DNA of 64,000 bases from a virus: positions 18,054 to 82,053 of IMG/VR virus record IMGVR_UViG_3300042868_006787. One strand, written 5' to 3'. A program made the position numbers and the translations under genes. Positions 4,976 to 61,606 of this stretch are shown in pieces. Under the pieces are notes generated by a model. The model did no database searches, had not been told where the DNA came from, and saw nothing but the letters and a program-made list of their open reading frames with translations. Each line of letters opens with the position of its first letter. The first letter of the stretch is position 1.

Positions 4976-4976
4976 T

Positions 4977-7900: not shown

Positions 7901-9137
7901 TATTTTCATAAAAAACAAACTTAATATTTTTGTTTAAATAATTTTTTATAATACTATTTTCATTATTTTCATTAAAGGCCAACTCTTCATCAAAAATAGT
8001 AACGGTGCCATTAGAGGCAAGTAATTGGCCTACCGGAATAGCACCTTGGGACATATCAGACATTGTTTTTGTTATTTGAAAGTCTAAAACATTATTTGAA
8101 ATATTTACAGAAAGTCTTGGAGACATTTCAATTAAATCAAAAACCGAATCAAATTTATTCATTGATAAAACTACTATTCTTATTCCATCAATATAATCAA
8201 ATTCATTATAAAAAAATGTATTATCTATCTTAGTAGTTTTTATCGGATCAGAAATTTTTGTAACAAATGAAGTATTGTAGTCAACTGACTCAGATTTTAA
8301 AAACCATTCATTGTTTAAATATGACAATTCTAAATATCCATCTGGCCCAATGATATCAGAGTCGTCCAATCTTCTGCTATTTTGATCAACATTTAAAATA
8401 TCTATCCAGTTATTATTTTTTAAAATTTGTACCTTAAATTTATTTGGAATGGTTTTATTTTGATTGCCATAAAATGGGCTAGAGTCTGTGCCAACAATGT
8501 CTTGAAAATTTCCAGGATCATTCTGCCCAACATTCGTTTGCATTTTTACAACAATTCTATTGCACGGGACGCTTTCTTTGTATACGACAAAAGGACATGA
8601 GTCTTCTATATAGTTAATACCATTAATTGTTTTATTTGCGATACCTCTTTCAGTTCCATTTTCTTTTCTATAGGATGACCAGTATTTAAAAATATCGTTT
8701 CGTGATGACATGTAATATCTTGGAGCATTGTTTCCAAACATAACATTTGTTGGTATATATTTTTTATCAAAAAATGACATCTTGTTAATGCCAGATCTTG
8801 GCCTAAATGGTTTAAGACAATCCTCCAAAGAATAATATAAAGATTTTTTTTGATCTAAAGATTGAAATAGTTGTAGTGTGTCGTTGGTATTATATGTATT
8901 TTGTATTTGTTCATAAGATAATTCAGCATTTGTATAGTAATCTCCGCTGTCCTCTAAATCAAAAGTGTTAGGAATATTTTTATAAATACTAGAAATATCA
9001 TTTGGTCTATATCTATAATTTCCTACCTTTTTAATGTTGCCAGGCACGTTCATATTCCATTCAGCAATAACGACTGACTGCAAAGATATATCGTTGGATG
9101 TTTTTAAATATTCTACAAGGTCACTATTGCTAAACAC
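4977..9137 (-). CDS. Large minor tail protein (tail tip/hub)
   Basis: 1386 aa, second gene after the tape measure; C-terminal LQLGDLVQI pattern typical of hub/Tal-like proteins. Confidence 0.7.
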   Translation of the reverse strand: MFSNSDLVEYLKTSNDISLQSVVIAEWNMNVPGNIKKVGNYRYRPNDISSIYKNIPNTFDLEDSGDYYTNAELSYEQIQNTYNTNDTLQLFQSLDQKKSLYYSLEDCLKPFRPRSGINKMSFFDKKYIPTNVMFGNNAPRYYMSSRNDIFKYWSSYRKENGTERGIANKTINGINYIEDSCPFVVYKESVPCNRIVVKMQTNVGQNDPGNFQDIVGTDSSPFYGNQNKTIPNKFKVQILKNNNWIDILNVDQNSRRLDDSDIIGPDGYLELSYLNNEWFLKSESVDYNTSFVTKISDPIKTTKIDNTFFYNEFDYIDGIRIVVLSMNKFDSVFDLIEMSPRLSVNISNNVLDFQITKTMSDMSQGAIPVGQLLASNGTVTIFDEELAFNENNENSIIKNYLNKNIKFVFYENIYNDNLTINYFVPIKTLYSDNFPQATDDGSTISISLRDFYFYFESQTAPRMLLTDVSLSFAISTLLDSVGFSNYTFKRIGLEKDPIIPYFFIAPDQSLAQVLNELAVSTQTAMFFDEYNNFTIMSKNYIMPEAGERESSFTLVGTNNQQELKGIMNNQENLDVIKNKPLSSDLPNIISISSQDKKIYNDGKINYTSRYIQRSYGSIKQSTLVDKEKTWIYKPSLLWEASGEDVLKTINSQVDKQSSFVLGAVPINSDLPISIPSVSNGFIIDNTVDLGENVYWLTKYKGYFYSSGEVIRYDAVQFNITGIGNIWISNNQEYQEYMGSLPFNGKIYPTGLIRILANPYYETIDGDTKIKNGPVFEHGRGQFGTLVASHTAGISNNWTEDTYLRGCNMKSNYLFTTSPEIEYPIDLTVGAAGVNNTLAKKCSRTGIIKNFMTSNYLTETELNSLQSTQTGTIQSSALVMSGPSFSSTDTPVDFISYVYKPLDSSYKHFGTRMRIVGSVNTSEDRLQTPIGSTTYYQVPTTQPNQSTNIGGGSGGLGIMINPETNNGYYFEIIALSEKNIESYLKIKSDGSSENNISNIVFYKIKKDSAGNAIPIKLWSGLTNILVDDGKFTGQYRMSGEENPTVYDLAVEYSNVGTTRKFYLYINNKLIGIVDDTDPLPVYNNVSLFVRGSSKCMFENIYALNENYSQNTVFNVADSISSVFGANEINANSALRKYAMSGVVQSTYLEGISSLQPPKYNMYYDEFGSIFREVAYFNVKYDKAYPALYAKISPTPNTTKGYVVSGFQADSYGAEFLVFNATDSALNLDETGGNYLKIQGITFTQDTTYTVSVDDYFNKKSNFAELDNLDNNTIRSNLVSIQDYNYIKQSRLNHGISSFTLETPYIQTLSDAENILGWIVKKSMKPKKLVGAQIFSLPILQLGDLVQIDYNKDGVDLICSPAKQFVIYNMDYQRNSNGPSMTVYLAEV

Positions 9138-9138
9138 T

Positions 9139-9741
9139 TTAGACCTCTTCTAGCGTTATATTAATATTCCATAGGTCATGATTAGTAAATCCTCTTTTTA
9201 CTACAGAATAAGAAAAATCTCTAAAATACATTTGAACAATTTGATTATATTTTGTTTTATCATCATATCTATCATATGCTAAATAAACCCAAAATGGTCC
9301 TTTGTGATTTTCATACCATCCTAATAATTCTAATCCCCCTGCACCACCATCAACAGTAAATTCGCCTAAGCCTCCACGAAGATTTGTCAATCCATTAGAA
9401 TCAAAAGATGGGTTATCTATGTATGACTTTGATGGCAACAATTGCCAAGAAGTTGATAAATTAATTTTATCTGCTATGTTATAGGCTCTCATGTTTCCGT
9501 TAATCATTCTTTCTCTTTTTTGAATTCTTTCTTGGCCAAAAGACAGTTCATTCCTATTGTGATCTGATAAAATTAAAAATGTATTTTTCTCATTTTCTGA
9601 TACGCCAGTCAAATTTGATCCAATTTCGTATCCATCAGGATAATAGAATCCGTTAGATAGGGTTCCTGGATTTTCAGACCAAAGCATAGCCTGTGGCAGT
9701 ACATATCTACGTCTACCTGCTAAATACGCTGCACTAGCCAT
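9139..9741 (-). CDS. Putative distal tail protein (Dit-like)
   Basis: Directly after the tape measure; ends WNINITLEEV. Confidence 0.55.
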   Translation of the reverse strand: MASAAYLAGRRRYVLPQAMLWSENPGTLSNGFYYPDGYEIGSNLTGVSENEKNTFLILSDHNRNELSFGQERIQKRERMINGNMRAYNIADKINLSTSWQLLPSKSYIDNPSFDSNGLTNLRGGLGEFTVDGGAGGLELLGWYENHKGPFWVYLAYDRYDDKTKYNQIVQMYFRDFSYSVVKRGFTNHDLWNINITLEEV

Positions 9742-12700
9742 CAGTATCTATTCCCCCTCAATCTTTGAGCATCCATATTTCTAATTTGTGTAATTACTGT
9801 TCTTGCAATGTCGTCTGGGCTTGCAGAAGTTCCGTTTACCCCAACACTTAAACTATAATTATACACTGAAGTGTTGCTATTTTTTGCTGAGTTATTGCTA
9901 ACCACATTTACTGCAGGAGTTCCTCCAAGTGATAAACTTCCTGGATATTTAGACTCATTCATCCTTTCTAGTAATGGTCCAAATTTTTGTGAAGCAGCCC
10001 TATTCATGACAAATTCTCCTGGAGTAAGCATGGTAGGAACTTTATCTAGCATTCCACTTCCAGAAACAACGCCTCCATACATTTTTCCTGGAACTTTAAC
10101 TGTTGTTCCGTTAAAGATTGTATTTCCATTATTATATTTAGGATTGCTGGTTAATACTGGGTTTATGGCAAGCAATTCTTTTACGGTTGTATTGTTTGCC
10201 TTAGCAATACTAGATAATGTTTGTCCGTTTTTGGCTGTAACGCTTATAAGGTTTGTTTTGGCTGGGGGTTTGTCTTTCTCTTCGTCATTTTTAATTTTAT
10301 CCTTTGGGTCTTCAACTGCTCCTGTAATGCCTCCTAGATCTGCTGATGTTTTACTGCCTAGAGTCGCCCATAAAATTGCCATTCTCTTTAAAACGTTTTC
10401 TGCGCTTTCTAATGCTTTAATATAATCTTTAGTTTTAACTTCTGCACTTTTAATAGCAAGTTCTGCTTCTGCATATTTTAGTCTTTGTTGTTCAATAAGT
10501 TTTATTTCGTTATCAAGTAGTCCTTGTGCTTTTGCTAACTCCCCAACTTTTAAGTTATAGTTTTTATCTTGAAGCACAACAATTTCTGCTGCAACAACTG
10601 CCTGCTTTTGTTCTAGAGAGTATATTTCTTCTCCCAAGGTATAAATTTTTTGTTCAATTTGAAGTTTAGATAATCCGCCTGCTGATCTTAAAGCATTTAT
10701 TTCATTGGTTTGGGCAATCTCTAAAGCATTTAAACTTTGCTCTTTTGCATAAACCTGTTCTTGATTTCTAATATCTTGTACTATTTGTGCTGCCTGAGAA
10801 ATATCTCCAGTTGTTAATGCATCAGCAAGGGAAATTTTAGACTTTTGTTGATCGGCAATTCTTTGGTTAATTGAATAAACTTGCTCTAAAGCGTCCCTCT
10901 GTTTGCCATATTTTTCAGTTATTGTTGAGGCTGTTTTTTCTATTAAGGAAAGATCGTGGTTTAGTTCTGTGATTTCAGACTGACGTTGTTGAATTGGTCT
11001 GTCATAAGTGATCTCAGAGTAGCGTTGTTTGGCCTCTATTGCTTTTTCGTTTGCTTCAATTAAACCATTTACTCTATCAATTTCTGGTTGATATTTAGCC
11101 CTAGCCTGCTGTTCTTGAACATCTAGCATTTCACTAACTTTGGCCATATCATTTCTAAATGCTGTAATTGGGTCATTTTGTCTTGCTGTTTTATCAATTA
11201 AATCTTTTGCAGTTTTATATGTTTCTATCCACTTTTCTAACTCTTTAATATCTTTTATACGTGAAATAGCAATTGCCAAGTTTGCATCAGCAACTAACTC
11301 TAAGGCCTGTGCTTGATTTACTCCTGCTGCAGTTAACCTTACAAATGCAGTTCTTTGTGCTTGCGCTCCATTAATTGCATTTATTTGTTCAGCATTAAAT
11401 AAACCAAGTGCCTTTTCGTCAAATGCTTTTTGAGCAGCCTTTCCCAAAGCAGTTATTGTAACTATGCCATCTTTTGCCACTTTAATTAACTTATTTTGAA
11501 TTGCTTTTTCTGCTCCGCCGACCCAATCAATAAAATCTGTATTTGCACCAAGGCTTGCTAATTGTTGATCAATGCCATTAAATATTTTAATGTCTTTGGC
11601 TCCACCAAGAACTCTTAGAAGTTCTCCTGCGCCTTTAGTTGCATTTATTGTGGCATCTCTTGTTCTCTTAAGATTAATTAAAATATCGTCAAATGTGGTA
11701 TCTCTATTGCCACTTTGTACATTTTTATTACCACCTGGGATTGTGTTATCTATACTAATCTTTGTTACTTTTTGTGCAAGTTCGGCCAAATAATCTAATA
11801 CAGTTTTGTCTGGATTTTGTGTTAGCCAATTTTGAATTGCTTCTGCATTATTGCCCTCAATGTTTGCTACTGTCGTAAGTGTCTGCAAATATACCTTTTG
11901 TTGTTCTGGTGGAAGGTTGCTAAAATATTCTTGATCTTTTCTTAAAACCTCCATCTCTTTTGCCCCTAATATTTTTGTTGCAATTTCTAAATCAATTTTT
12001 CCTTTTTGCTCATTAATTTTATCTATTGTTGATTGTAGGTTTGCTGCTTCAATTGGATTATTACTATAATATGTTAATGCAACTTCAATATCCATAACAT
12101 TTCCAACCCTACTTATATCTGCAAAAAGTTTTAGATATTTTTCTGCTTCTTCTGAAGTTTTACCACTAATGTCCGCAATAAATTTTGTCTGCTGTTCTTT
12201 AAGCGGATTTCCATTTTTATCCTGGAATAGGTTAACAACTGACATGGCTTGATTAGCAAAAGCACCACCAAACTTTGTAACAATATTCATAACTTTGGTT
12301 AAAGTTTCTGAATCTTGTCCAAATGTTTCCATTAAATTAACAATTTGCATTGGGTCCATTTGACCAGATGCTAGTTGCATTTTTAAAGTAAATTGTGCTT
12401 CTTTAGACAAAGACGAACCACCTAATAAATCTGTAGCAAGCGGTGCTATATCTGCCATAGCAGTATCTTTATATTTACTTGTAATCTGTTTGTCTAATCC
12501 AGTTTCAAGCGCTCCACGAACTGCTCCAGATGAATTTTTATATGTGTTTTGTATATCTGTAACTAATTTTCCATTTTGCTCAAGCAGTGTAGTGTTTGCT
12601 CGTTGATATTCATTTTGCAATTGAATTGCTTTTACAGTGTCTCCAGCAGCCTTAGCGTTAGCAATTCTTTGTTCATACTCAAGTCTTAAAGAGTCTTGCA

Positions 12701-53140: not shown

Positions 53141-53341
53141 TCATAGCGAGAATCCTAATCTATTAGAAGTGATAGCCTCTACCTGTGCTAATTGCTCAGG
53201 AGTAGCGTTGCGATAAGCGTTAATGCTCTCAGCAATCCATGGAAAACTTTCCATAGCAAGCGCATGCTCTTTAGCATAGCGAGCCTGTTGGGCTTTTCTA
53301 ATATCCGCAATAATGTTATTGTTAGGGTTATTGTTTATCAT
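53141..53341 (-). CDS. Hypothetical early protein
   Basis: GAAAGGA RBS; downstream of the PafBC-type promoter at 53381-53402. Confidence 0.65.
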   Translation of the reverse strand: MINNNPNNNIIADIRKAQQARYAKEHALAMESFPWIAESINAYRNATPEQLAQVEAITSNRLGFSL

Positions 53342-53380
53342 TTATAGTTATCCTTTCAAGATACTTTCTTTATACCCCCT

Positions 53381-53402
53381 AGTCTAGCAGGGGGGACTGA
53401 CA
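53381..53402 (-). promoter_or_regulatory. PafBC/RecA-NDp-type promoter
   Basis: TGTCAG-TCCCCCCTGC-TAGACT on the minus strand. Confidence 0.65.
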
Positions 53403-53441
53403 TTTTGGGGACTTTCCCCTAGTGTCGTGGTGTGAGATACC

Positions 53442-53569
53442 TCACTTAATTGCTACGCTCATCCTATTGCTAGGCTTATTTGGTAGGCTCATTGAGGCTA
53501 TCTAATCTCTAACTCACTTACTTGCTAGGCTCATCCTCTTATCGAGGGTTATTTGCTAGGCTCATTGAG
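53442..53569 (-). repeat. Array of five 13-bp repeats (ATGAGCCTAGCAA consensus); minigene- or iteron-like
   Basis: Copies at 53450, 53467, 53480, 53522 and 53553. Confidence 0.85.
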
Positions 53570-53732
53570 TCTGCTTCTTTATTTTTTTGTATAATGGAAT
53601 TATAGCAGAGATAACCCCAAAAGTCAAGACGACACGCCGTAAATAACACGCATGTAATTAGTGATATACACCACACGACAATTCGGACATATTGGACATG
53701 TAGCCCGGCGCTATCGGGTGTGTCTGAGAGAG

Positions 53733-53797
53733 TTATCCACATGATATAGATCACATACCCATTTCACGCTTAAGTTATCCACATGACCTACATCACA
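53733..53797 (+). promoter_or_regulatory. Two DnaA boxes, each overlapping a CRP-like box (42-bp period)
   Basis: TTATCCACA at 53733 and 53775, each continuing as CATGA-N6-TCACA. Confidence 0.7.
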
Positions 53798-53837
53798 CGA
53801 CACAATGTCCGATTTGTCCTACCTACTAGTCAGTAAA

Positions 53838-53859
53838 TGTCAGTGGTAGGTGTTATACT
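53838..53859 (+). promoter_or_regulatory. PafBC/RecA-NDp-type promoter
   Basis: TGTCAG-TGGTAGGTGT-TATACT. Confidence 0.65.
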
Positions 53860-53910
53860 TCTAGTATAAAGAAAGTTGAGAAAGGTTCTCAAACTTAGAA
53901 AGGAATTCAA

Positions 53911-54084
53911 ATGAATTCAGTTATAAATAAAGTGTGTAAGCATACACCTAATAAAAATGCTATCTCTATCGTTAATGACGAAAGATTTACCTTCTGCGAG
54001 AATTGTGAGCAGAATATAACTTCTCACTATCGTGAGGATAATGACTTCATGTCTTATTGGACTTCTTGGAAAGTTGGTAAGTAA
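53911..54084 (+). CDS. Small Cys/His protein (57 aa)
   Basis: GAAAGGA RBS; CKH...FCENCEQ. Confidence 0.6.
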   Translation: MNSVINKVCKHTPNKNAISIVNDERFTFCENCEQNITSHYREDNDFMSYWTSWKVGK

Positions 54085-54186
54085 ATGATAGATTTATTTT
54101 GTAAAGTTTGCGATGGCTTTGTGCTATCGCTTCCTGCTGATGAAGCAGAAGACTTAACTGTTAAATGTTCTAGTTGTTGGGAATAA
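54085..54186 (+). CDS. Zn-ribbon microprotein (33 aa)
   Basis: CKVC...CSSC. Confidence 0.55.
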   Translation: MIDLFCKVCDGFVLSLPADEAEDLTVKCSSCWE

Positions 54187-54190
54187 TAAA

Positions 54191-54316
54191 ATGTTAAAAG
54201 AAATAAAAAACAAAATTATTCGTATTCAAGAATTGCGTCGTAGTAATGCTGCGACTCCAATTCCAAATAAAAAAAAGTATTCAAGAAAAACAAAACATAA
54301 AAATAAATTGCAATAA
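54191..54316 (+). CDS. Small basic protein (41 aa)
   Basis: MLKEIKNKIIRIQELRRSNAATPIPNKKKYSRKTKHKNKLQ. Confidence 0.6.
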   Translation: MLKEIKNKIIRIQELRRSNAATPIPNKKKYSRKTKHKNKLQ

Positions 54317-54351
54317 AAAAACCCGGCGCACCTGGCGTGTCGTACACAGGC

Positions 54352-54387
54352 TGTGGATAACTTACGTACGATGTGATTTTTCTCACA
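54352..54387. promoter_or_regulatory. DnaA box (reverse) and perfect CRP/GlxR-type box
   Basis: TGTGGATAA at 54352; TGTGA-TTTTTC-TCACA at 54372. Confidence 0.7.
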
Positions 54388-54435
54388 AGACTTGAGCGTC
54401 TCATTATTTGGAATTACTGGCTAGTAGGTTGTAAA

Positions 54436-54457
54436 TGTCTGCTAATTCTGATAGACT
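54436..54457 (+). promoter_or_regulatory. PafBC-type promoter (variant)
   Basis: TGTCTG-CTAATTCTGA-TAGACT. Confidence 0.55.
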
Positions 54458-54494
54458 TACGGAGTAAGAAAATAAAGAAAGGAAGTGGCTAACA

Positions 54495-54698
54495 ATGGCT
54501 AACTTATACACAATAGAAAATCTCCTAGTGGGAAAAACTTATAACTCAAAAACTTTGTCTGGAGAAATTGTCTCAGCAGAGAAATCTAATCAACCAATTT
54601 GGTATGGAGAAAATACGGAAGCGTATTTGGTAGAAATTTTTTCTCCTCATACTTTGCGTAATAAATACCGCACAATTGCGGTGAAGGTTGGTGAATAA
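54495..54698 (+). CDS. Hypothetical early protein
   Basis: GAAAGGA RBS; 67 aa. Confidence 0.65.
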   Translation: MANLYTIENLLVGKTYNSKTLSGEIVSAEKSNQPIWYGENTEAYLVEIFSPHTLRNKYRTIAVKVGE

Positions 54699-54700
54699 TA

Positions 54701-54823
54701 ATGGGATATATTGAGATATTTCGCCTTGATGAACAAGGTGCTGGGTGGGTTGACCTTTCTGAGGCTACCCCCGCAGAATTGCTTGACCTAGAAATTGGCT
54801 TATTCCAAGAAGGGGCTTTGTGA
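54701..54823 (+). CDS. Small acidic protein (40 aa)
   Basis: MGYIEIFRLDEQGAGWVDLSEATPAELLDLEIGLFQEGAL. Confidence 0.55.
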   Translation: MGYIEIFRLDEQGAGWVDLSEATPAELLDLEIGLFQEGAL

Positions 54824-54884
54824 GATAAATCACAAGGCAACACACCCCCCGCAGGTTGAAAATGTCGGTGGGATTTGATAGGAT
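54819..54884 (+). promoter_or_regulatory. Perfect CRP-type box followed by a PafBC-type promoter
   Basis: TGTGA-GATAAA-TCACA at 54819; TGTCGG-TGGGATTTGA-TAGGAT at 54863. Confidence 0.7.
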
Positions 54885-54918
54885 AGTCTTATCAAACAAT
54901 AAAGAAAGGTGGTCAGAA

Positions 54919-55101
54919 ATGACTTACACTATAAAACTAGAAACCTATAATGGCGCAGTAAAAAATATTTACTTAACCACTAAAGGACAAGTGGCTGAGT
55001 TTATTAACACTTATCCAAACCAATTACCTGTTGGCGTATCTGTTAAATTAGATTGCGATATGCTAGGGATTAGAGGAACGCTAAGAGGTAAAAAACAATG
55101 A
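54919..55101 (+). CDS. Small early protein, paralog of 52732-52917
   Basis: GAAAGG RBS, start MTYTIKLET. Confidence 0.7.
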   Translation: MTYTIKLETYNGAVKNIYLTTKGQVAEFINTYPNQLPVGVSVKLDCDMLGIRGTLRGKKQ

Positions 55102-55247
55102 TTAACTCTGTTATGCGTTTTGATTGTAATGATTGCAATGGGCAAGGTCTTATCTTTTGGGGTAATGACCTTGACTACAATGTGGAAAAATGCGAGTGTA
55201 ATGATTTCGCACTAGGAACTTTATTTACTACGAAAGAGGCTGACTAA
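55098..55247 (+). CDS. Zn-finger microprotein, paralog of 55751-55915
   Basis: CNDCNGQG...GN..DY.V..CECN. Confidence 0.6.
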   Translation: MINSVMRFDCNDCNGQGLIFWGNDLDYNVEKCECNDFALGTLFTTKEAD

Positions 55248-55439
55248 ATGACTAGAAAAGACTATATCAAAACCGCAAACATATTGGCTGGATTTGTAGA
55301 TGAAGTTCCACAAAACACTTATGAAGATTTAGTTCAAGAGTTTGCTGAGTGGTTCAAATCAGATAACGAAAACTTTGACTTTGCAAGATTTGAAAAGGCT
55401 TGCGGAATTGATGAGATTGGATTAATAAATGTTAACTAA
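55248..55439 (+). CDS. Hypothetical phage protein
   Basis: MTRKDY...F..DN.NFD.ARF..AC, a recurrent small phage protein pattern. Confidence 0.65.
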   Translation: MTRKDYIKTANILAGFVDEVPQNTYEDLVQEFAEWFKSDNENFDFARFEKACGIDEIGLINVN

Positions 55440-55592
55440 TTTAGATGTGATTGCAATAATAATTGCGCTACTTGGTTGCTTAACTGTTATGGGTTTATTT
55501 TGGAAACAAAATATTGCACAACAAAAAGAAATTCGCAGATTGCAAATTGCGTTGCGAACTGAGCGACTTAAAAACAAATAAACAAAAGGCCC

Positions 55593-55608
55593 TAGAACAT
55601 ACGTTCGA
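55593..55608. promoter_or_regulatory. LexA (SOS)-like box, actinobacterial/Gram-positive type
   Basis: TAGAAC-ATAC-GTTCGA, one mismatch to TCGAAC-N4-GTTCGA. Confidence 0.55.
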
Positions 55609-55704
55609 AAGGCCCGGCGCTGACGGCGTGTCGCAATCAATAGTCTTTACGTGTGGTTAAGATCACACCCCAGATTCTCCAGATTATGGTGTCTAATTAG
55701 ATTT

Positions 55705-55726
55705 TGTCGGTTGTATCTGATAGGAT
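55705..55726 (+). promoter_or_regulatory. PafBC-type promoter
   Basis: TGTCGG-TTGTATCTGA-TAGGAT. Confidence 0.65.
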
Positions 55727-55750
55727 AAAGATATAAAGAAAGAAGGCAAA

Positions 55751-55915
55751 ATGGGTAAAGTAAAAGCAAGCGTAATGGATATATTGGAGTGCGATAGTTG
55801 TTATGGCTATGGTTGGCAATTCGTAGGAAATGCTATAGACTATGATGTATGGGCGTGCGAGTGTAATCCTTACAATATCCCTGCCGACAACCTACTAGAT
55901 TGGAAACTAAACTAA
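55751..55915 (+). CDS. Zn-finger microprotein, paralog of 55098-55247
   Basis: CDSCYGYG...GN..DYDV..CECN. Confidence 0.6.
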   Translation: MGKVKASVMDILECDSCYGYGWQFVGNAIDYDVWACECNPYNIPADNLLDWKLN

Positions 55916-56124
55916 TGGAATATACTTATTCACTTACTACTTCGTATGACGGAGAGTTAATTCATACCCTGCGAGTTAGCGATTTGTTTGACGCCGTTCA
56001 TGCTTGGGATAAATGCGTGGACTATGGCTTTGCTAAAGAATACGCAACCTATAACTTGTCTGACCCAACAGGTAAGATGTATACTAAAACCTTCTACACC
56101 AACGGAAAGGTATCAATTAAATAA
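55915..56124 (+). CDS. Hypothetical early protein
   Basis: TAATG coupling at both ends. Confidence 0.6.
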   Translation: MEYTYSLTTSYDGELIHTLRVSDLFDAVHAWDKCVDYGFAKEYATYNLSDPTGKMYTKTFYTNGKVSIK

Positions 56125-56408
56125 TGGGATCAATAACAGCAATAGGTTTAGCAGATACAACGCTAGACCTAGAAACACAATTAAAGTATCACTTGCAAGG
56201 TAATCATTATCCACCAATACCAACAGTAATGGTGCAGCCTTGCATCGAGGCTATTGACGCTTACTATGATGAGGACTACTCTCGTAAAATAGAGTTGCCA
56301 ATTGTTGATGGATTCCAGATTAGTTGGAAGGGTAATACTTGGACTACCGCTAGTGCATTGGTATCACACGCACACCTAGAGTGGTTTATCGAGCCAGTAG
56401 ATGAGTAA
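56124..56408 (+). CDS. Hypothetical early protein
   Basis: 94 aa, HLQGNHYPP. Confidence 0.65.
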   Translation: MGSITAIGLADTTLDLETQLKYHLQGNHYPPIPTVMVQPCIEAIDAYYDEDYSRKIELPIVDGFQISWKGNTWTTASALVSHAHLEWFIEPVDE

Positions 56409-56489
56409 AGACTTGCAAGATAAACTAGATGCAGTTGCGCTAATCTTAGAGCCTATTCTATGGGAAACACTAGCAGAAATTGAGGAACA

Positions 56490-56729
56490 ATGAAAACATT
56501 AGAAAACGATGATATTATTCTAATTATGGATTACTATAAAGTTGATATGTTAACTGCAGGACAGTTAATGGTTGACGATAACATTCTTGTTGATGGCGAG
56601 GTTGTTTGTATTACTGAAATAATTTCATTAGCCGATGGATACACTTTAGAAATTATAAATGATTTTGGTGAAAGAGATACTATTGAAGTTTCTGAGTATC
56701 AGCAATTTGATTTAATGATGTTGAAATAA
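56490..56729 (+). CDS. Hypothetical acidic protein
   Basis: 79-aa ORF with GAGG RBS. Confidence 0.55.
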   Translation: MKTLENDDIILIMDYYKVDMLTAGQLMVDDNILVDGEVVCITEIISLADGYTLEIINDFGERDTIEVSEYQQFDLMMLK

Positions 56730-56813
56730 GAGGCGCCCGGCCAATGTCCGTTTTGTCCCATTTTGTTAATTACGTATACTTGTATTTTTCCCCTAAAAAT
56801 GTTATACTTAATT

Positions 56814-57536
56814 ATGACCCAATTAAAGAGATCGCATGATAGAAAGGTCGCTAACCTTGTTACAAAAAATGGAAAGCAAGCCGCAATTGCAAACACGTTC
56901 GGATTACCCGCAGGAAAAAACTTTTCATGTCCTGGTGCTACGTCTATCTGCGAGACTGTTTGCTACGCTGGGAAACTTGAAAAACTATTCAAAGGAGTAA
57001 AGGCTAACCTCCTTCACAATTGGGAGTTATTAAAAGACGCAGACGAATCAACTATGATAAGTCTATTAGATAATATGATTAATGATTTTAAAAAAGATTG
57101 TGAAAAGAAAAAAGCCCCACTACTATTTCGCATTCATTGGGACGGTGATTTCTTTAATGACACGTACACCAAAGCATGGAAGCAGATCATCCTTAACAAT
57201 GCAGATATAAAATTTTGGGTATATACACGAGTAGAAGCAGCAGCCTTAATGCTTAAGGGTATTGATAATCTATCTTTATACTATTCAACAGATAGCGAGA
57301 ATAAGCAAATAGGTGTTAGTTTAAAGAAAGATCATGGAGTGCGCCTTGCATACCTTGCACAGAATTTTGCTATAGGTCAAGCAGATATGAAAAAATTGTT
57401 TGATAAACCTGGCGCTAAGTGTCCTGAGAACCTAAAAGCCATTCCCCTAATCTCAAATGCTGGAAGTGCTTGCGTATCATGCGGATTGTGTGTATACTCT
57501 AAAAGCGATATTGTTTTCTCATCATCTAAAAAATAA
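56814..57536 (+). CDS. GP88-like (radical-SAM-related) Fe-S protein
   Basis: FGLPAG..CPGATSICETVCYA...FRIHWDGDF...FWVYTR...CVSCGLC; TGTTATACT 5 nt before ATG. Confidence 0.7.
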   Translation: MTQLKRSHDRKVANLVTKNGKQAAIANTFGLPAGKNFSCPGATSICETVCYAGKLEKLFKGVKANLLHNWELLKDADESTMISLLDNMINDFKKDCEKKKAPLLFRIHWDGDFFNDTYTKAWKQIILNNADIKFWVYTRVEAAALMLKGIDNLSLYYSTDSENKQIGVSLKKDHGVRLAYLAQNFAIGQADMKKLFDKPGAKCPENLKAIPLISNAGSACVSCGLCVYSKSDIVFSSSKK

Positions 57537-57642
57537 GGAGTGGTGCTTGGAACTCTTAATAGGACTATCAATTATATTCGTCTATTTATTGTTTGCTGGT
57601 CTAGGACACTAAATGTCCGTTTTGTCCGTTTCTATACGCTGG

Positions 57643-57683
57643 TGTGAGATACATCACAGATATCACATCTCAAAATATGAGAT
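57643..57683. promoter_or_regulatory. Perfect CRP-type box plus ATCTCA-N5-TGAGAT palindrome
   Basis: TGTGA-GATACA-TCACA at 57643; palindrome at 57667. Confidence 0.65.
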
Positions 57684-57761
57684 TATTAGAAATATAACTT
57701 GTATTTTTGACCAAATAATGTTATTCTTAGGTAGTAAGCCAAACCAACAAGAAGGAGAACC

Positions 57762-57926
57762 ATGTCCGTATCAACCGCAACATACAAAGTAGGCGACACC
57801 TACACATCACAAAAATCAAAGGTAGTAGGAACTATTACCGAAATTGTGCCAACTAACAAGAACACAGTTAGAGTTAAGTTAGATGTTAATGGCTCAACTC
57901 GCTGGACTACTTGGACAGCAAAGTAA
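57762..57926 (+). CDS. Small beta-rich protein (54 aa), paralog of 58521-58691
   Basis: AAGGAG RBS; Y.VGD...S.K..V.G.I....P.......RV.L. Confidence 0.65.
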   Translation: MSVSTATYKVGDTYTSQKSKVVGTITEIVPTNKNTVRVKLDVNGSTRWTTWTAK

Positions 57927-57928
57927 TC

Positions 57929-57971
57929 TTAGCCTAGTGGCTAAAGTCCTGAGCATGACCAAAAACTGCTC
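57929..57971 (+). ncRNA. Hairpin + H-type pseudoknot motif, copy 1
   Basis: TTAGCC/GGCTAA hairpin, then GTC-CT-GAGCA-T-GAC-CAAAAAC-TGCTC. Confidence 0.6.
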
Positions 57972-58011
57972 AACTTAAAAGCCCCACTAACAGAAACGGA
58001 AACCCATCACA

Positions 58012-58434
58012 ATGGCAAGAAGCAAACCCATCAGCGTAAAAATCGCTACTGCTAAGGTTATTACAGCCTTAGAAAACAGATTAGCCGAACTAGAGGCTAA
58101 CTATAAAACACAAGACGAGAACGAGGCAAAGTTCCAAACCCAAATAGACGCTTGGAAAAAAGAACTATTTGCTTTTGCTATCGCTAATGTTTCTAAGGCA
58201 GAAAACCTTAGAACTAACTATCGCCAATGGAACAACAACCTTAATGTTGATTTTGATTTAACAGTTAAAGAAGGCGAGTTCCCTGCTGAACCTGAGCGTA
58301 AGTTTGAGCAAATCCATGTTCATACTTATCGTGAGCAGAAAGAGGAAATGGAAAACGCTATCCGTATCCTTAAAATGACCGACGAGGAAACAGTTAGCAC
58401 TAGCACATATAACGCTATCGCTAGATACCTTTAA
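58012..58434 (+). CDS. Hypothetical coiled-coil protein
   Basis: 140-aa helical ORF. Confidence 0.7.
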   Translation: MARSKPISVKIATAKVITALENRLAELEANYKTQDENEAKFQTQIDAWKKELFAFAIANVSKAENLRTNYRQWNNNLNVDFDLTVKEGEFPAEPERKFEQIHVHTYREQKEEMENAIRILKMTDEETVSTSTYNAIARYL

Positions 58435-58520
58435 TAGTTTGGGGGTATTTGACTATGCCCCCAAAATATGTTAGACTAGATAAGTAATGACCCAAACCCA
58501 AACAGAAAGGCAAGACCCAA

Positions 58521-58691
58521 ATGACACTAGGCGGATACACATACCAACTAGGTGATTTATTCACCACAAGCAAAACAGGTATTACAGGTAGAATTGTAAA
58601 GTTCTCACCTATTAACTCTAAGACCACTAGAGTATCCTTACAATTAGCAAATGGCGCAAGACGCCTTGCTATGGTAAGCACAACTAAATAA
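58521..58691 (+). CDS. Small beta-rich protein (56 aa), paralog of 57762-57926
   Basis: GAAAGG RBS; Y.LGD...SK...G.I....P.......RV.L. Confidence 0.65.
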   Translation: MTLGGYTYQLGDLFTTSKTGITGRIVKFSPINSKTTRVSLQLANGARRLAMVSTTK

Positions 58692-58692
58692 T

Positions 58693-58770
58693 TTATCTCT
58701 GATAAGCACTTGGCTCATCTGCTAAGTTATTCCTGAGATAAGACTCCTGAGCATGAGTTCTAAACTGCTC
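58693..58770 (+). ncRNA. Hairpin + pseudoknot motif, copy 2
   Basis: TTATCTC...GAGATAA, then GACTC-CT-GAGCA-T-GAGTT-CTAAAC-TGCTC. Confidence 0.6.
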
Positions 58771-58905
58771 ACCTTTTAATTGCCCCGCAAAAACCCGGGC
58801 ACATGTGATGTAGATCACGTCCCACTATGTGAGACTAATTAAGAACTGAACTTGCATTTCACAGGCCATGGTGATATTATTGTATTAACAGAAAAGGAAC
58901 CCCTA

Positions 58906-59403
58906 ATGAGCGAAGTAATGTTACAAGATCAGTTAACTGTTTCTTATAATCCCAACCTACTTGTGACCTACAAGTATATACCTGAACTGACACCTTCACA
59001 TGGTGTGCAACTAGGGGAAGAGCCAGCAGCAACATTCATGACTGATAAAGTTACTGAGATTGAATGGCAACTTCATAAGTCACGAGAGTATGCAGCAAGA
59101 TCATCTGCATTGGCTGCAGAGCGACGTGGTGACATTGAGTGGCTTGAAGAGCACATTGTTGAATGGTATGACCCAAACTATTCCAAAGAAGAAGTTTTAA
59201 AAGCGCTAGCAGAACACTTTGCTATTAATCCTATGAAGGAGATTAGCGTATACGGAACTGTTACATTCAGCGGAACAATACAGGTGCCACTGGATGAGGT
59301 TGAAGATTTTGACCTAAGCAATGTAACCATTGACGCAGAAATAAGTTCATATGACTATGAAGCGGACCTAACTGTGGACGATGTATCACTGGAAGAGAAC
59401 TAA
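58906..59403 (+). CDS. Hypothetical acidic protein
   Basis: AAGGA RBS before MSEVML. Confidence 0.65.
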   Translation: MSEVMLQDQLTVSYNPNLLVTYKYIPELTPSHGVQLGEEPAATFMTDKVTEIEWQLHKSREYAARSSALAAERRGDIEWLEEHIVEWYDPNYSKEEVLKALAEHFAINPMKEISVYGTVTFSGTIQVPLDEVEDFDLSNVTIDAEISSYDYEADLTVDDVSLEEN

Positions 59404-59442
59404 TAAGAGATCTGTAGCATCCGCTGCAGGGACCGTTTAAAT

Positions 59443-59487
59443 TTGATAGGGGGCTATCAAGATCCTGGACATGATCATAAACTGTCC
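59443..59487 (+). ncRNA. Hairpin + pseudoknot motif, copy 3 (covariant)
   Basis: TTGATAG/CTATCAA, then GATC-CT-GGACA-T-GATC-ATAAAC-TGTCC. Confidence 0.65.
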
Positions 59488-59563
59488 TATTAAAATGCCC
59501 GGCCCGCCCGAAATGTCCGATTTGTACTATTTAAGAAGATTAAACCATTTCCCCCAATCCTAT

Positions 59564-59592
59564 TTGACATTGTCAGCCATGACTGCTAAACT
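59564..59592 (+). promoter_or_regulatory. Dual SigA (-35 TTGACA) and PafBC-type promoter of the DUF932 gene
   Basis: TTGACA-T-TGTCAG-CCATGACTGC-TAAACT. Confidence 0.65.
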
Positions 59593-59618
59593 TAGTTAAA
59601 ACGATCGAAAGGAAAAAA

Positions 59619-60635
59619 ATGGCCCATGAGTTAGAAACTCAAAACGGTGTGGCAAGTTTTGCATCATTCCGTGAACCTGCATGGCACAATCTTGGTACTG
59701 TATTTGATACTGAGAAAAACACTAACGAAATGTTAGTTGCTGCTAATCTTAATAATTGGAATGTTAGACTAGAGGATTTAGAAATCCCATCTAGTTTAGT
59801 ATCTGACAAACAATATCAATATGTTGTTCGCACAAATCCTACTGACAAATCTCAAACTGATGTTTTGGGAATTGTTGGTGAGCGTTATGTTCCACTACAA
59901 AATGAAGATTTATTTTCATTCGGTGATAATATTCTTGATGGTGGTGGACGATGGGAAACTGCTGGCTCTCTTAAGGGTGGGCGTGTAGTATTTGGCTCTC
60001 TTGCATTAGAGCGTGAAACTGTATTAGACCCAAATGGTGTGGCAGATGTTGTTAAAACTTATTTGCTTATCAACACATCACACGATGGCTCAATCGCTAT
60101 TCAAGCAAGCATAACACCCGTTCGTGTTGTGTGCGCTAATACTCTTAATGTTGCACTTAACCGTACACGCAAGAAAGATGGCGTCAAGCAATCTTTCAAA
60201 ATCCGTCATACTCAAACTGCTCAGGGCAAAGTTGCTGTTGCTCGTCAAGCATTAGGTATGGCTAATTCATACATGGACGCATTTGATAAAATGGCTCATG
60301 CTATGATAACAAAAGAAATCACCGCACAAGATTTCAATAACATTATTCTTGCTGCATATCCTAAACCTGAAACCGATAGCAAGGGCTCTCTAAAGAAATG
60401 GGAAAACAAAGTAGATATGATTAACGATATCTATACTGGAGAGTTTAACGGAATGATTAGTGGAAATGCTTGGGGTGCGTTCAATGCACTAACTGAGCGT
60501 TTAGACTGGTATCGTTCTGCTCGTGGTGGTAATAGCGAAAGCATGTTTGCTGCTGCTTCTGGATTTGACCCTGTAATAAATGCAGAGAAAAATCGTTTGC
60601 TAACTATTGTTCAAAATACTTTGCAACTAGTTTAG
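59619..60635 (+). CDS. DUF932 family (phage/plasmid TIGR03299-like) protein
   Basis: MAHEL...REPAWH.LG...LG.VG.RY..LQN...ETAGSL.GG..VF...SHDGS...TPVRVVC.NTL...IRHT. Confidence 0.85.
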   Translation: MAHELETQNGVASFASFREPAWHNLGTVFDTEKNTNEMLVAANLNNWNVRLEDLEIPSSLVSDKQYQYVVRTNPTDKSQTDVLGIVGERYVPLQNEDLFSFGDNILDGGGRWETAGSLKGGRVVFGSLALERETVLDPNGVADVVKTYLLINTSHDGSIAIQASITPVRVVCANTLNVALNRTRKKDGVKQSFKIRHTQTAQGKVAVARQALGMANSYMDAFDKMAHAMITKEITAQDFNNIILAAYPKPETDSKGSLKKWENKVDMINDIYTGEFNGMISGNAWGAFNALTERLDWYRSARGGNSESMFAAASGFDPVINAEKNRLLTIVQNTLQLV

Positions 60636-60640
60636 CAATA

Positions 60641-60668
60641 AAATCCTGAGCATGATTTAAAACTGCTC
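60641..60668 (+). ncRNA. Pseudoknot motif, copy 4, abutting tRNA-Asp
   Basis: AAATC-CT-GAGCA-T-GATTT-AAAAC-TGCTC. Confidence 0.6.
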
Positions 60669-60672
60669 CGCT

Positions 60673-60746
60673 GGTCCCATAGATCAATTGGTTAGATCGT
60701 TACCCTGTCACGGTAAAGGCTACGGGTTCAAGTCCCGTTGGGATCG
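60673..60746 (+). tRNA. tRNA-Asp(GTC)
   Basis: GGTCCCA/TGGGATC acceptor, GATC/GATC D-stem, TTACC-CTGTCAC-GGTAA, ACGGG-TTCAAGT-CCCGT; no CCA. Confidence 0.92.
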
Positions 60747-61062: not shown

Positions 61063-61606
61063 ACCCAAAACCATAAACCAATTAGTAGAAACCATATACG
61101 AGGATAATTTCTCACACCTAGATCTAATAGACAACATGGCTAGCGGTGATTGTGATTGTCGTATCCATATCACTCTTAATACTATCTTAGAATATTGGGG
61201 TGAGTAATGTCAATGCTAGGGTATGAAAGAGATGATTTAGATAATATGGTTCTTGCAGTTGAATCTGCTCTAACTACCGTGAATTCTGACGATGATCCTT
61301 GGCTACACAGAAACCTTACACAAGCCTCTGACTTCTTGCAAGGCCTATGGGCAGAGGGGTACTTTGAATAATGGCTCCTCAATATTCTCAAGACCACGGT
61401 GCAATTATAGATAAAATTATGGAACTTATAAACACAGATGGTGAGGTCCTGTCTGATGAAGAGGTTGTTAATAGTATTAGGGGACTTCTTGAAGAGAACC
61501 CTCAAACCTATTGGGGTGGAGTGTGATGTAGATCACCTTACGATACCTTGTAATTTTTCCCAGTTCGTAGTAAAATTGTATTAAGAACCCTAGAGAAAGA
61601 AGCCCA

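What the first reader, a model, noticed from the sequence alone, without database searches (positions are those of the whole stretch)
53381..59592. Six early promoters match the actinobacterial PafBC DNA-damage promoter
Seen: TGTC(A/G/T)G-N10-TAnnnT with exact spacing at 53402 (minus), 53838, 54436, 54863, 55705 and 59571, each just upstream of an SD and a gene. Known: mycobacterial PafBC, a WYL-domain nucleic-acid-sensing activator, recognises TGTCGG-N10-TA-N3-T (RecA-NDp) by sigma adaptation. Inference: the phage couples early transcription to the host LexA-independent damage response, perhaps triggered by infection, or encodes its own WYL-type activator elsewhere.
Basis: partly seen in the sequence, partly recalled or inferred. 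Interest (0 to 1): 0.82.

Follow-up and report, generated by a model that had tools for sequence, protein, structure and literature searches.

The report
Lake phage promoters resembling PafBC promoters
An uncultured lake phage of actinobacteria starts six early transcription units from promoters that carry, at exactly the right place, the short DNA box that the host DNA-damage activator PafBC reads, but they also keep ordinary promoter signals, so borrowing that host switch is plausible and untested.

Summary
Observation confirmed. All six sites exist at the stated coordinates, each in front of a ribosome-binding site and a start codon. The window has 8 matches against 1.73 expected. In 80 related lake-phage loci the 10-nt spacing gives 467 matches, against 10 and 39 at 9 and 11 nt.

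The phage is an actinophage. Its portal is 46% identical to Streptomyces BE phages, and WhiB is present in 4 of 4 complete relatives.

Sequence, spacing and position equal the published PafBC consensus tGTCgg(N10)tA(N3)T (PMC8635444). No WYL, sigma or cNMP-binding gene was found in the phage or its complete relatives.

The promoters are not plain copies of host PafBC promoters:
- All six have an extended -10, and 3 of 6 have a -35-like TTG (124 of 235 in the family).
- Sixteen host recA PafBC-type promoters have 0 and 1 of these respectively.
- Most carry a phased CRP-like palindrome upstream.

The host is unidentified, and 8 of 30 sampled actinobacterial genomes lack both WYL genes and the recA motif.

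Best reading (0.45): hybrid sigma-A promoters that PafBC-loaded polymerase can also use. Main rival (0.3): a phage-encoded factor.

The scan noted the same reading before in at least 56 other genomes.

The parts
53381..53402 (-). Class A promoter (TGTCAG-N7-TGC-TAGACT), leftward. It drives the 66-aa gene at 53341-53141. The -35 position reads CCCAAA.
53838..53859 (+). Class A promoter TGTCAGTGGTAGGTGTTATACT in front of gene 53911-54084. The -35 position reads CAGTAA. It shares 17 of 22 nt with a recA-type site of high-GC actinobacteria.
54436..54457 (+). Class A promoter TGTCTG-N7-TGA-TAGACT with TTGTAA at the -35 position, in front of gene 54495-54698.
54863..54884 (+). Class A promoter TGTCGG-N7-TGA-TAGGAT with TTGAAA at the -35 position, in front of gene 54919-55101.
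55705..55726 (+). Class A promoter TGTCGG-N7-TGA-TAGGAT in front of gene 55751-55915. The -35 position reads TAGATT.
59564..59592 (+). Class A promoter with a consensus -35: TTGACA-T-TGTCAG-N7-TGC-TAAACT, in front of the DUF932 gene 59619-60635. Among 58 distinct orthologous upstream regions, the TTG is kept in 58 and the TGTC in 52.
53431..53446 (.). CRP-like palindrome (TGTGA-N6-TCACT). Its centre is 52.5 nt from the -10 of the leftward promoter.
54372..54387 (.). CRP-like palindrome TGTGA-N6-TCACA, 72.5 nt from the -10 of the 54436 promoter.
54819..54834 (.). CRP-like palindrome, 52.5 nt from the -10 of the 54863 promoter.
55652..55667 (.). CRP-like palindrome (one mismatch), 61.5 nt from the -10 of the 55705 promoter.
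56780..56808 (+). Class B promoter (TTGTAT-N17 including TGT-TATACT, no TGTC box) in front of the GP88-family gene. It serves as a comparison class.
57699..57727 (+). Class B promoter with no TGTC box. A CRP-like palindrome at 57643-57658 lies 71.5 nt upstream of its -10.
58449..58477 (+). Class B promoter TTGACT-N17-TAGACT.
58852..58880 (+). Class B promoter TTGCAT-N17-TATTAT. A CRP-like site at 58804-58819 lies 63.5 nt upstream.
56057..56078 (+). Pattern match inside the ORF 55900-56124, without TGn. It is probably not a promoter. An identical 22-nt match is found in relative G003; I did not check that it lies in a homologous ORF there.

Best explanation
The six sites are early promoters for the host housekeeping (sigma-A) RNA polymerase, and they have a hybrid build.

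The build has four parts:
- an extended -10 (TGnTAnnnT);
- an optional -35-like TTGnnn at 17 nt;
- usually a helically phased CRP-like palindrome upstream;
- a strongly conserved TGTCAG-type box at -28 to -23.

The box has the sequence, place and spacing of the '-26 element' that the actinobacterial activator PafBC reads when it sits between sigma region 4 and the DNA ('sigma adaptation').

Most likely the promoters work in two modes:
- Unaided polymerase can fire them through the extended -10, with or without the -35.
- Polymerase carrying PafBC activated by single-stranded DNA can also use them through the box, although that polymerase can no longer read a -35.

Early genes would then stay on, or rise, when the host's single-stranded-DNA alarm is triggered by damage or by the infection itself.

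Shown: the elements exist, are conserved and have an exact geometry; the setting is actinobacterial; no phage WYL or sigma gene was found. Inferred: that PafBC, or any protein, binds the box; that the host has PafBC; the two-mode logic.
For: - The match to the published consensus in sequence, spacing and position is exact.
- Spacing is strict in 80 related loci: 467 matches at N10 against 10 and 39 at N9 and N11.
- When only TGTC is required, the next two bases are still A (86%) and G (93%). TGTCAG makes up 192 of 235 sites.
- TGTCAGTGG, which is the form printed in the S. coelicolor SCO6735 primer text of PMC5087735 and the recA form of three high-GC genomes, makes up 51 of 304 distinct phage sites.
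- The site at 53838 shares 17 of 22 nt with that recA form.
- 111 of 235 family sites have no TTG at the -35 position.
- Actinobacterial host: WhiB in 4 of 4 complete relatives; portal, DUF932, GP88 and WhiB are closest to Streptomyces and Rhodococcus phages.
- No WYL, no sigma70 region 2 and no cNMP-binding domain was found in the phage or its complete relatives.
- Across 30 published actinobacterial genomes, TGTC-N12-TAnnnT upstream of recA tracks the WYL genes: 15 of 18, 1 of 4 and 0 of 8 for two or more, one and no WYL matches. One of the positive genomes has about 38% GC.
- Cultured Streptomyces BE phage NootNoot has TGTC at the same offset in 7 terminal-repeat promoters.
Against: - The host is unidentified.
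- Of five sampled genomes whose recA locus has 40% GC or less, only one has WYL genes.
- Host recA PafBC-type promoters have a -35 TTG in 0 of 16 and TGn in 1 of 16. Phage sites have a TTG in 124 of 235 and TGn in about three quarters.
- The DUF932 promoter keeps a near-consensus -35 in 58 of 58 variants together with the box. An activator looks unnecessary there, and in the published structure PafBC and sigma region 4 cannot both contact that DNA.
- In NootNoot the box reads TGTCC[CT], not the TGTCAG of Streptomyces-type recA promoters, and equals a half-site of another shared motif, TGTCCGnTTTGTCC.
- Rhodococcus relative Grayson shows no enrichment.
- All known carriers may be one phage lineage, so a lineage-specific factor would explain the box equally well.
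- No transcription start or induction data exist. The RNA contigs were uninformative.
Confidence: 0.45

Rival explanations
1. A phage-encoded protein that is not a WYL protein reads the box. It could be a middle-gene activator that works with sigma A, as MotA/AsiA do at T4 middle promoters. It could instead be a repressor that shuts the strong early promoters off. On this reading the likeness to the PafBC box is coincidence.
For: - The box co-occurs with a near-consensus -35 and an extended -10 at the DUF932 promoter in 52 of 58 variants. That suits an operator better than an activator site.
- A fixed position could be kept simply by the 17-nt spacer constraint.
- Other TGTC-containing motifs shared with BE phages (TGTCCGnTTTGTCC) point to a lineage-conserved DNA-binding protein.
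- A 63-aa helix-turn-helix protein resembling sigma region 4 or GerE is conserved in 6 of 6 phage genomes and in 35 Streptomyces and Rhodococcus phage records. The reverse complement of the box, CTGACA, resembles a -35 hexamer.
- All carriers seen so far may be one phage lineage.
Against: - The promoters head the block of small genes at the divergence point and next to a likely origin, so they probably fire before any phage protein exists.
- A 6-7-bp asymmetric site is short for a repressor.
- The coincidence with the PafBC core, spacing and host phylum, and with the longer TGTCAGTGG form, would go unexplained.
- Nothing links the HTH protein to the box.
- Grayson has the HTH protein but not the box.
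Confidence: 0.3
2. Another host factor reads the box or the whole upstream region. Candidates are a domain resembling sigma region 4, such as WhiA (GACAC motif, with GACA on the bottom strand here), or a response regulator.
For: - The bottom strand of the box reads CTGACAW. WhiA's motif GACAC can lie on either strand at variable distance (passages of PMC10243135).
- Complete relatives encode WhiB, WhiA's partner.
- GGCGTGTCG, which is GACAC on the bottom strand, occurs three times in the same region.
Against: - In the passages read, the WhiA motif is placed relative to the -35 and WhiB contacts DNA upstream of it; none places the motif in the spacer.
- The fifth base is A or T in all 235 sites (49% A, 51% T), never the C of GACAC.
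- I know of no response-regulator motif that fits (recalled, not searched).
Confidence: 0.12
3. The box has no function of its own. It is a remnant of repeated duplication of one ancestral promoter cassette.
For: Promoters in the block share the leader ATAAAGAAAGG and their general layout.
Against: - The rest of the spacer has decayed to 0.05-0.44 bits while the box stays near 2 bits, with A at 86% and G at 93% even when they are not selected for.
- The box is kept across variants with 82-100% protein identity at one orthologous promoter while the spacer changes.
Confidence: 0.05

Closest known systems
PafBC-dependent (RecA-NDp) promoters of Mycobacterium and other Actinobacteria, read by 'sigma adaptation' (PMC8635444, PMC11804915; Gamulin et al. 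2004 is recalled, not read)
   Same: - TGTC(A/G)G box at -28 to -23.
- Exactly 10 nt to a TAnnnT -10.
- Actinobacterial setting.
- The longer TGTCAGTGG form is frequent.
- About half of the sites lack a -35.
   Different: - Located in a virulent-looking phage, in front of small genes of unknown function.
- An extended -10 TGn is present in about three quarters, against 1 of 16 host recA sites.
- A -35-like TTG is present in about half, against 0 of 16.
- The three bases upstream of the box are A/T-rich.
- Phased CRP-like sites lie upstream.
- Dependence on PafBC is untested and the host is unknown.
T4 middle promoters (MotA box at -30 plus -10; sigma appropriation by AsiA/MotA). Mentioned in PMC8635444; the details are recalled.
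   Same: A phage promoter class defined by a short asymmetric box at a fixed distance upstream of a normal -10, in the place where the -35 contact is made.
   Different: - The box sequence and position differ.
- T4 encodes its own factors. Here no candidate beyond a small HTH protein was found, and MotA/AsiA homologues were not searched for.
- Many sites here keep a -35.
Class I CRP/GlxR-activated promoters (TGTGA-N6-TCACA). This is established knowledge, recalled.
   Same: - A perfect CRP-type palindrome occurs 250 times in 80 loci, against 0-4 at other spacings.
- Its distance to the -10 peaks at 10-bp steps.
   Different: - The centres lie about 3 bp further upstream than the E. coli -61.5 and -71.5 positions, if transcription starts 12 nt after the first base of the -10.
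- The factor is unknown. The phage has no cNMP-binding protein.
Early promoters in the direct terminal repeat of Streptomyces BE-cluster phages (NootNoot, MF347636.1). Seen here; I found no paper describing them in the listing.
   Same: - Related phage lineage (portal 46%, DUF932 54%, GP88 50%).
- TGTC at the same offset from TAGACT in 7 promoters per repeat.
- The TGTCCGnTTTGTCC motif is shared.
   Different: - The box reads TGTCC[CT].
- About 56% GC in the 11.4-kb stretch read here (a BE2 relative is reported at 49.3%, listing), against 35% here.
- The host is Streptomyces.
- These are cultured phages, so the question can be tested in them.

Membership tests
PafBC-dependent (RecA-NDp) promoter | -26 element tGTCgg at -28 to -23, with an invariant GTC | tested here: met
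   - 6 of 6 window sites read TGTC[AGT]G.
- In the family, 192 of 235 sites with TGTC at that offset read TGTCAG.
- The consensus was read in PMC8635444.
PafBC-dependent (RecA-NDp) promoter | Exactly 10 nt between the box and a TAnnnT -10 | tested here: met
   - 467 matches at N10 against 10 at N9 and 39 at N11 in 80 loci.
- In G003, 8 matches at N10 against 0-5 at other spacings.
PafBC-dependent (RecA-NDp) promoter | No -35 consensus (hybrid promoter lacking the -35) | tested here: not met
   - TTG at the -35 position in 3 of 6 window sites.
- 124 of 235 family sites have it.
- 58 of 58 DUF932-promoter variants have it.
- 0 of 16 host recA sites have it.
- About half of the phage sites do lack it.
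PafBC-dependent (RecA-NDp) promoter | The host encodes the PafB-PafC pair (two WYL proteins) | not testable with these tools
   - The host was not identified.
- 46 of 58 published sampled actinobacterial genomes have WYL matches (49 of 61 with three unpublished ones), but only 1 of 5 with a recA locus of 40% GC or less.
PafBC-dependent (RecA-NDp) promoter | Transcription depends on PafBC and is induced by single-stranded DNA or DNA damage | not testable with these tools
   Lake metatranscriptome contigs cover parts of the region but show no starts, strand or induction.
Sigma-A (sigma-70 type) extended -10 promoter | TGn directly upstream of TAnnnT | tested here: met
   6 of 6 window sites. In 329 distinct family sites, T is at 70% and G at 77% of those positions.
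Sigma-A (sigma-70 type) extended -10 promoter | -35 TTGnnn at 16-18 nt | tested here: inconclusive
   3 of 6 window sites. The generic scan calls only 2 of the 6 at 9 of 12 matches or better.
Class I CRP/GlxR-type activated promoter | TGTGA-N6-TCACA palindrome on one face of the helix upstream of the core promoter | tested here: met
   - 4 of 6 class A window promoters have one with at most one mismatch, at 52.5, 52.5, 61.5 and 72.5 nt.
- In the family, 110 of 149 class A distances fall in the bins 51-53, 61-63 and 71-73.
Class I CRP/GlxR-type activated promoter | A CRP-family protein binds and activates | not testable with these tools
   No cNMP-binding domain was found in the phage or 4 complete relatives. 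The host is unknown.
T4-type sigma appropriation (MotA/AsiA) | Phage-encoded activator plus co-activator that remodel sigma region 4 | not tested
   No search for MotA or AsiA families was run. Only sigma70_r2, sigma70_r4_2, GerE, WYL, WhiB and cNMP families were searched.

The most novel reading that the evidence does not exclude
An abundant family of lake phages wires its first genes to the host's single-stranded-DNA alarm. Cultured Streptomyces BE phages would do the same in a variant form. Polymerase carrying PafBC reads the phage box by sigma adaptation, and a cAMP-receptor-type site adds a second host input. This would be the first virus shown to exploit a WYL-family activator, and it would mean that the act of infection switches on the phage programme through the host's own damage sensor.
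Probability: 0.4. Interest if true: 0.8.

Novelty: new variant of a known kind. Interest (0 to 1): 0.62.

Why it matters
PafBC and sigma adaptation are known only from host DNA-repair genes. A virus that copies that promoter grammar would show the mechanism being exploited. It would give a natural set of several hundred variant sites for working out what PafBC reads. It would also link infection to the damage alarm in some of the most abundant freshwater bacteria.

If a phage protein reads the box instead, it would be an unknown sigma-directed factor in Actinobacteria, which is also of interest.

A related box sits in cultured Streptomyces BE phages, so the question can be taken to the bench with standard laboratory strains.

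In three searches (listings) I found no paper that links PafBC-type promoters to phages.

Tried and rejected
- Phage-encoded WYL activator: no match in the contig or in five relatives, four complete and one 96% complete.
- Phage sigma factor: no sigma70 region 2. There were only sub-threshold region-4/GerE-like matches to a 63-aa HTH protein.
- Phage CRP: no cNMP-binding domain.
- Pfam on ten small early proteins: nothing above the cut-offs.
- Host identification failed in three ways.
  - The genome-contig scan with the relatives' WhiB found only four short contigs that encode a WhiB like the phage's (67-82% identical). They have about 33-39% GC and lie in MAGs labelled Saccharibacteria, Acidimicrobiaceae and Chitinophaga. 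Two other loci of the Acidimicrobiaceae MAG have 70-72% GC, so I take these contigs to be mis-binned.
  - WhiB identity to 401 actinobacterial genomes gave no outlier apart from those contigs.
  - BLAST of 20 kb of the window against 401 genomes gave mostly tRNA-Asp-like hits, those contigs and five other short weak hits.
- Relatives could not be drawn for a virus record.
- Transcript starts: four lake metatranscriptome runs are held only as contigs. They cover parts of the region but show no starts. Parts without cover mean nothing.
- The generic sigma-70 scan finds no more sites than shuffles do (21 against 21.3), so it was not used as evidence.
- Rhodococcus phage Grayson shows no enrichment of the geometry (20 against 26 for the control).
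- The pattern with D at position 5 is not enriched in NootNoot (4 against 4). Only the relaxed TGTC form is.
- I considered that the box plus the -35 form a palindrome (TTGACA-T-TGTCAG). I rejected this as a general reading because TTGACA is at the -35 position in only 18 of 235 sites.
- I looked by eye for a hairpin in CCCGGCGC...GGCGTGTCG and saw none. It was not folded.
- Supplementary files were not opened. The host-prediction table of PMC6802176 and the promoter lists of PMC8635444 might bear on the host and on the motif.

Full report
WHAT THE DNA IS. The window is bases 18054-82053 of an 82,053-bp virus contig with 35.3% GC, which CheckV rates 76% complete. Structural genes lie on the minus strand. 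They include a portal, a head protease and a capsid-like protein. RecA, a DnaE-type polymerase and a primase lie just outside the window.

The portal is 46% identical to Streptomyces BE-cluster phages and the DUF932 protein is 54% identical. A GP88-family gene is present. Four of four complete relatives (105-118 kb) encode a WhiB over the Pfam cut-off. That WhiB is 40.7% identical to BE-phage WhiB and 40% identical to that of Rhodococcus phages.

Eighteen lake-water metagenome runs hold at least 91% of the sampled words of the stretch. IMG/VR holds 483 relatives of the DUF932 gene. This is therefore an abundant, uncultured lake actinophage.

THE OBSERVATION. Each is 24-51 nt upstream of an ATG preceded by a GAAAGG-type ribosome-binding site. 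Two more matches, at 2906-2927 (-) and 56057-56078, lie inside ORFs. The window has 8 matches against 1.73 expected, and 0 of 100 shuffles reach 8.

All six intergenic sites also have TGn in front of the -10, which makes them extended -10 promoters. Five are followed by ATAAAGAAAG. I read that as an extended Shine-Dalgarno sequence pairing with the 16S rRNA tail; this is inference.

CONSERVATION.
- In 80 related loci (1.118 Mb), TGTC[AGT]G-Nx-TAnnnT gives 467 matches at x=10. It gives 10 at x=9, 39 at x=11 and 5-153 at the other spacings tried.
- These are 329 distinct sites, 289 of them on the gene strand.
- Without presupposing the box, I took all 3794 distinct TGnTAnnnT contexts and asked which 4-mers are enriched at which offset. 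Leaving aside a rarer CGGC word at -35 (52 against 2.8), the leading signals are TGTC at -16 (235 against 13.2 expected) and TTGA at -23 (298 against 24.4).
- So there are two promoter classes. Class A has the box. Class B has an ordinary -35 at 17 nt.
- With only TGTC required, the next bases are A (86%) and G (93%). The three bases upstream are A/T-rich. The rest of the spacer carries 0.05-0.44 bits.
- Phylogenetic footprints of four window promoters show the same conserved blocks.
- In five complete relatives the matches (7, 16, 8, 15, 13 against controls 2, 1, 4, 4, 1) lie mostly in one block of about 3-11 kb.
- Class B promoters also occur in the replication and structural modules.

COMPARISON WITH PafBC. 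Passages of PMC8635444 give the consensus tGTCgg(N10)tA(N3)T. The 5' part lies at -23 to -28, no -35 is present, the GTC triplet is strictly conserved across actinobacteria, and PafBC sits between sigma region 4 and the DNA. The phage box matches in sequence, place and spacing.

A primer printed in PMC5087735 shows TGTCAGTGG...TACGGT directly upstream of the SCO6735 start codon, the region where that paper reports a RecA-NDp promoter. TGTCAGTGG makes up 51 of 304 distinct phage sites.

I dropped two unpublished ones, which left 30.
- TGTC-N12-TAnnnT lies within 450 nt upstream of the aligned part of recA in 16 of 30.
- By number of WYL matches the figures are 15 of 18 genomes with two or more, 1 of 4 with one and 0 of 8 with none.
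- One positive genome has about 38% GC at the locus.
- The host hexamers are TGTCAG in 6 sites, TGTCAC in 3, TGTCGC in 2, TGTCGT in 2, TGTCCC in 2 and TGTCGG in 1.
- The window site at 53838 shares 17 of 22 nt with the recA form TGTCAGTGGCAGG[CG]GTTAGCGT.

WHERE THE PHAGE SITES DEPART.
- Host recA sites have TTG at the -35 position in 0 of 16 and TGn in 1 of 16.
- Phage class A sites have TTG at -23 in 87 and at -24 in 37 of 235. They have T at 70% and G at 77% of the TGn positions.
- In the window the -35 positions read TTGTAA, TTGAAA and TTGACA at three sites, and CAGTAA, TAGATT and CCCAAA at the other three.
- At the orthologous DUF932 promoter (58 distinct upstream regions from 79 loci), TTG is kept in 58 of 58 and TGTC in 52 of 58, while the spacer changes.

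The phage promoters are thus hybrids. By established knowledge of extended -10 promoters they should fire without an activator. In the published structure PafBC and a sigma region 4 contact with the -35 exclude each other. Hence the two-mode reading, which is inference.

FACTORS ENCODED BY THE PHAGE. I found no WYL, no sigma70 region 2 and no cNMP-binding domain. Ten small early proteins have no Pfam family. A 63-aa HTH protein (L001:6210-6401, minus strand) gives sub-threshold region-4/GerE matches in 6 of 6 phage genomes. It hits a PHROG 'DNA binding protein' family and has homologues in 31 Streptomyces and 4 Rhodococcus phage records. It is a candidate for the rival reading, but nothing links it to the box.

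UPSTREAM CRP-LIKE SITES. TGTGA-N6-TCACA with at most one mismatch occurs 7 times in the window, all between 53431 and 61537, against 2.84 expected for the whole window. In the 80 loci there are 250 perfect copies, against 0-4 at the other spacings tried (N3-N5, N7-N9).

The distance from the palindrome centre to the first base of the -10 peaks at 52.5, 62.5 and 72.5 nt for class A; 110 of 149 distances fall in three 3-nt bins. For class B it peaks at 41.5, 51.5-52.5, 62.5-63.5 and 71.5 nt; 114 of 123 fall in the corresponding bins. This helical phasing suggests a CRP-type activator that touches the polymerase. Which protein does so is unknown.

CULTURED RELATIVES. In Streptomyces phage NootNoot the terminal-repeat block of small genes has 7 promoters per repeat with TGTC[CT][CT]-N10-TAGACT or TAGAGT. 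The whole record has 26 matches of TGTC-N12-TAnnnT against 12 for the control. Rhodococcus phage Grayson has 20 against 26.

The NootNoot box, TGTCC, differs from the TGTCAG of the three recA loci of 69-72% GC, which I take, unnamed, to be Streptomyces-like. It equals a half-site of TGTCCGnTTTGTCC. That motif is shared by NootNoot (11 copies), this phage (4) and G003 (5), against 0-2 for the controls. In both phages, copies of the motif flank the GP88 gene.

THE HOST. It was not identified. Of 58 published sampled genomes, 46 have WYL matches. The 12 genomes without a match are 1.3-3.2 Mb (9 of them at most 1.8 Mb), and the 7 of them whose recA locus I read have at most 55% GC there. Of five genomes whose recA locus has 40% GC or less, only one has WYL.

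BE phages are reported near 49% GC (BE2 phage CeilingFan, 49.3%; listing), and from memory Streptomyces genomes are near 70%. A 35% GC phage therefore does not fix the host's GC. If the host is a streamlined lineage without pafBC, the best reading falls.

LITERATURE. Three searches for PafBC or RecA-NDp together with phage terms (listings only) showed no paper on phage promoters of this type. In PMC11804915 'phage' occurs only in the reference list. A search on BE-cluster promoters found none described (listing). Of the papers on lake actinophages, I read part 1 of 2 of PMC10202952, and passages of PMC6802176 and PMC10914622. They describe whiB-encoding lake phages, mostly with unresolved hosts. 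The cultured Planktophila phages are 39 kb and belong to another family.

EARLIER NOTES OF THIS SCAN. The same reading was noted in at least 56 other genomes, and the eight summaries returned describe it in lake or aquatic actinophages, most of 95-111 kb. One note also mentions CRP sites. I treated these notes as leads. My counts of -35 and TGn disagree with summaries that say the usual -35 is lacking, though those concern other genomes.

VERDICT. The sites are hybrid sigma-A promoters with a PafBC-type -26 box, so I do not file them as plain members of the PafBC promoter family. Confidences: PafBC-responsive 0.45, phage-encoded factor 0.30, other host factor 0.12, no function 0.05.

Noticed in passing
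window 53431-53446, 54372-54387, 54819-54834, 55652-55667, 57643-57658, 58804-58819, 61522-61537: CRP/GlxR-type palindromes TGTGA-N6-TCACA sit upstream of both promoter classes. In the family their distance to the -10 steps by 10 bp. There are 250 perfect copies in 80 related loci against 0-4 at other spacings.
   Followed up: yes
window 53806-53819, 56745-56758, 57614-57627, 59514-59527; NootNoot MF347636.1 4370, 5231, 7780, 10024, 12691 and their repeat copies: The direct-repeat motif TGTCCGnTTTGTCC is shared between this 35% GC lake phage and Streptomyces phage NootNoot. In both it flanks the GP88-family gene on both sides, but in opposite orientation relative to the gene. The binding factor is unknown.
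   Followed up: partly
window 53630-53638 (-), 54334-54342, 55625-55633: GGCGTGTCG carries GACAC, the WhiA motif, on the opposite strand. One copy abuts the -35 of the leftward class B promoter at 53627. The relatives encode WhiB, so these could be WhiA/WhiB-type sites. With one mismatch allowed, the window count of 5 against 1.66 expected is weak (5 of 100 shuffles reach it).
   Followed up: partly
window 53438-53585 and 53733-53741, 53775-53783, 54352-54360 (-): Iteron-like repeats (TTGCTAGGCTCAT and longer units) and three perfect DnaA-box sequences TTATCCACA lie in the divergent control region. This is possibly the replication origin.
   Followed up: partly
L104 (NootNoot, reverse complement of 1-11424): 2173, 3202, 3666, 4092, 4608, 8288, 10097: Seven terminal-repeat promoters of a cultured Streptomyces BE phage have TGTC[CT][CT] exactly 10 nt upstream of TAGACT or TAGAGT. 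This gives a tractable system for testing what reads the box.
   Followed up: partly
L001:6210-6401 (-), outside the window (G000 6210-6401): A 63-aa helix-turn-helix protein gives sub-threshold matches to sigma region 4 and GerE. It is conserved in 6 of 6 phage genomes searched and in Streptomyces and Rhodococcus phages, where it is annotated as an HTH DNA-binding protein.
   Followed up: partly
loci L105-L137 (recA regions of unnamed actinobacterial genomes): Presence of TGTC-N12-TAnnnT upstream of recA tracks the number of WYL genes: 15 of 18, 1 of 4 and 0 of 8. The genomes without WYL are mostly small, and those whose recA locus I read have at most 55% GC there. Several recA loci, with and without WYL genes, carry a LexA-type GAAC-N4-GTTC box.
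   Followed up: yes
L096-L099 (genome contigs): Short phage-like contigs of 33-39% GC sit in MAGs labelled Saccharibacteria, Acidimicrobiaceae (70-72% GC elsewhere in that MAG) and Chitinophaga. I take this as mis-binning and not as evidence for a host.
   Followed up: partly
window 57762-57926 and 58521-58691: Two small proteins of 54 and 56 aa, each behind its own class B promoter, look like paralogues by eye (shared Y-x-x-GD...G-x-I...V-x-L pattern). They were not aligned or searched.
   Followed up: no
window 53300-60700: Contigs from four lake metatranscriptome runs cover parts of the early region, some at 99% identity or more. They are consistent with expression in nature, but DNA carry-over cannot be excluded.
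   Followed up: partly
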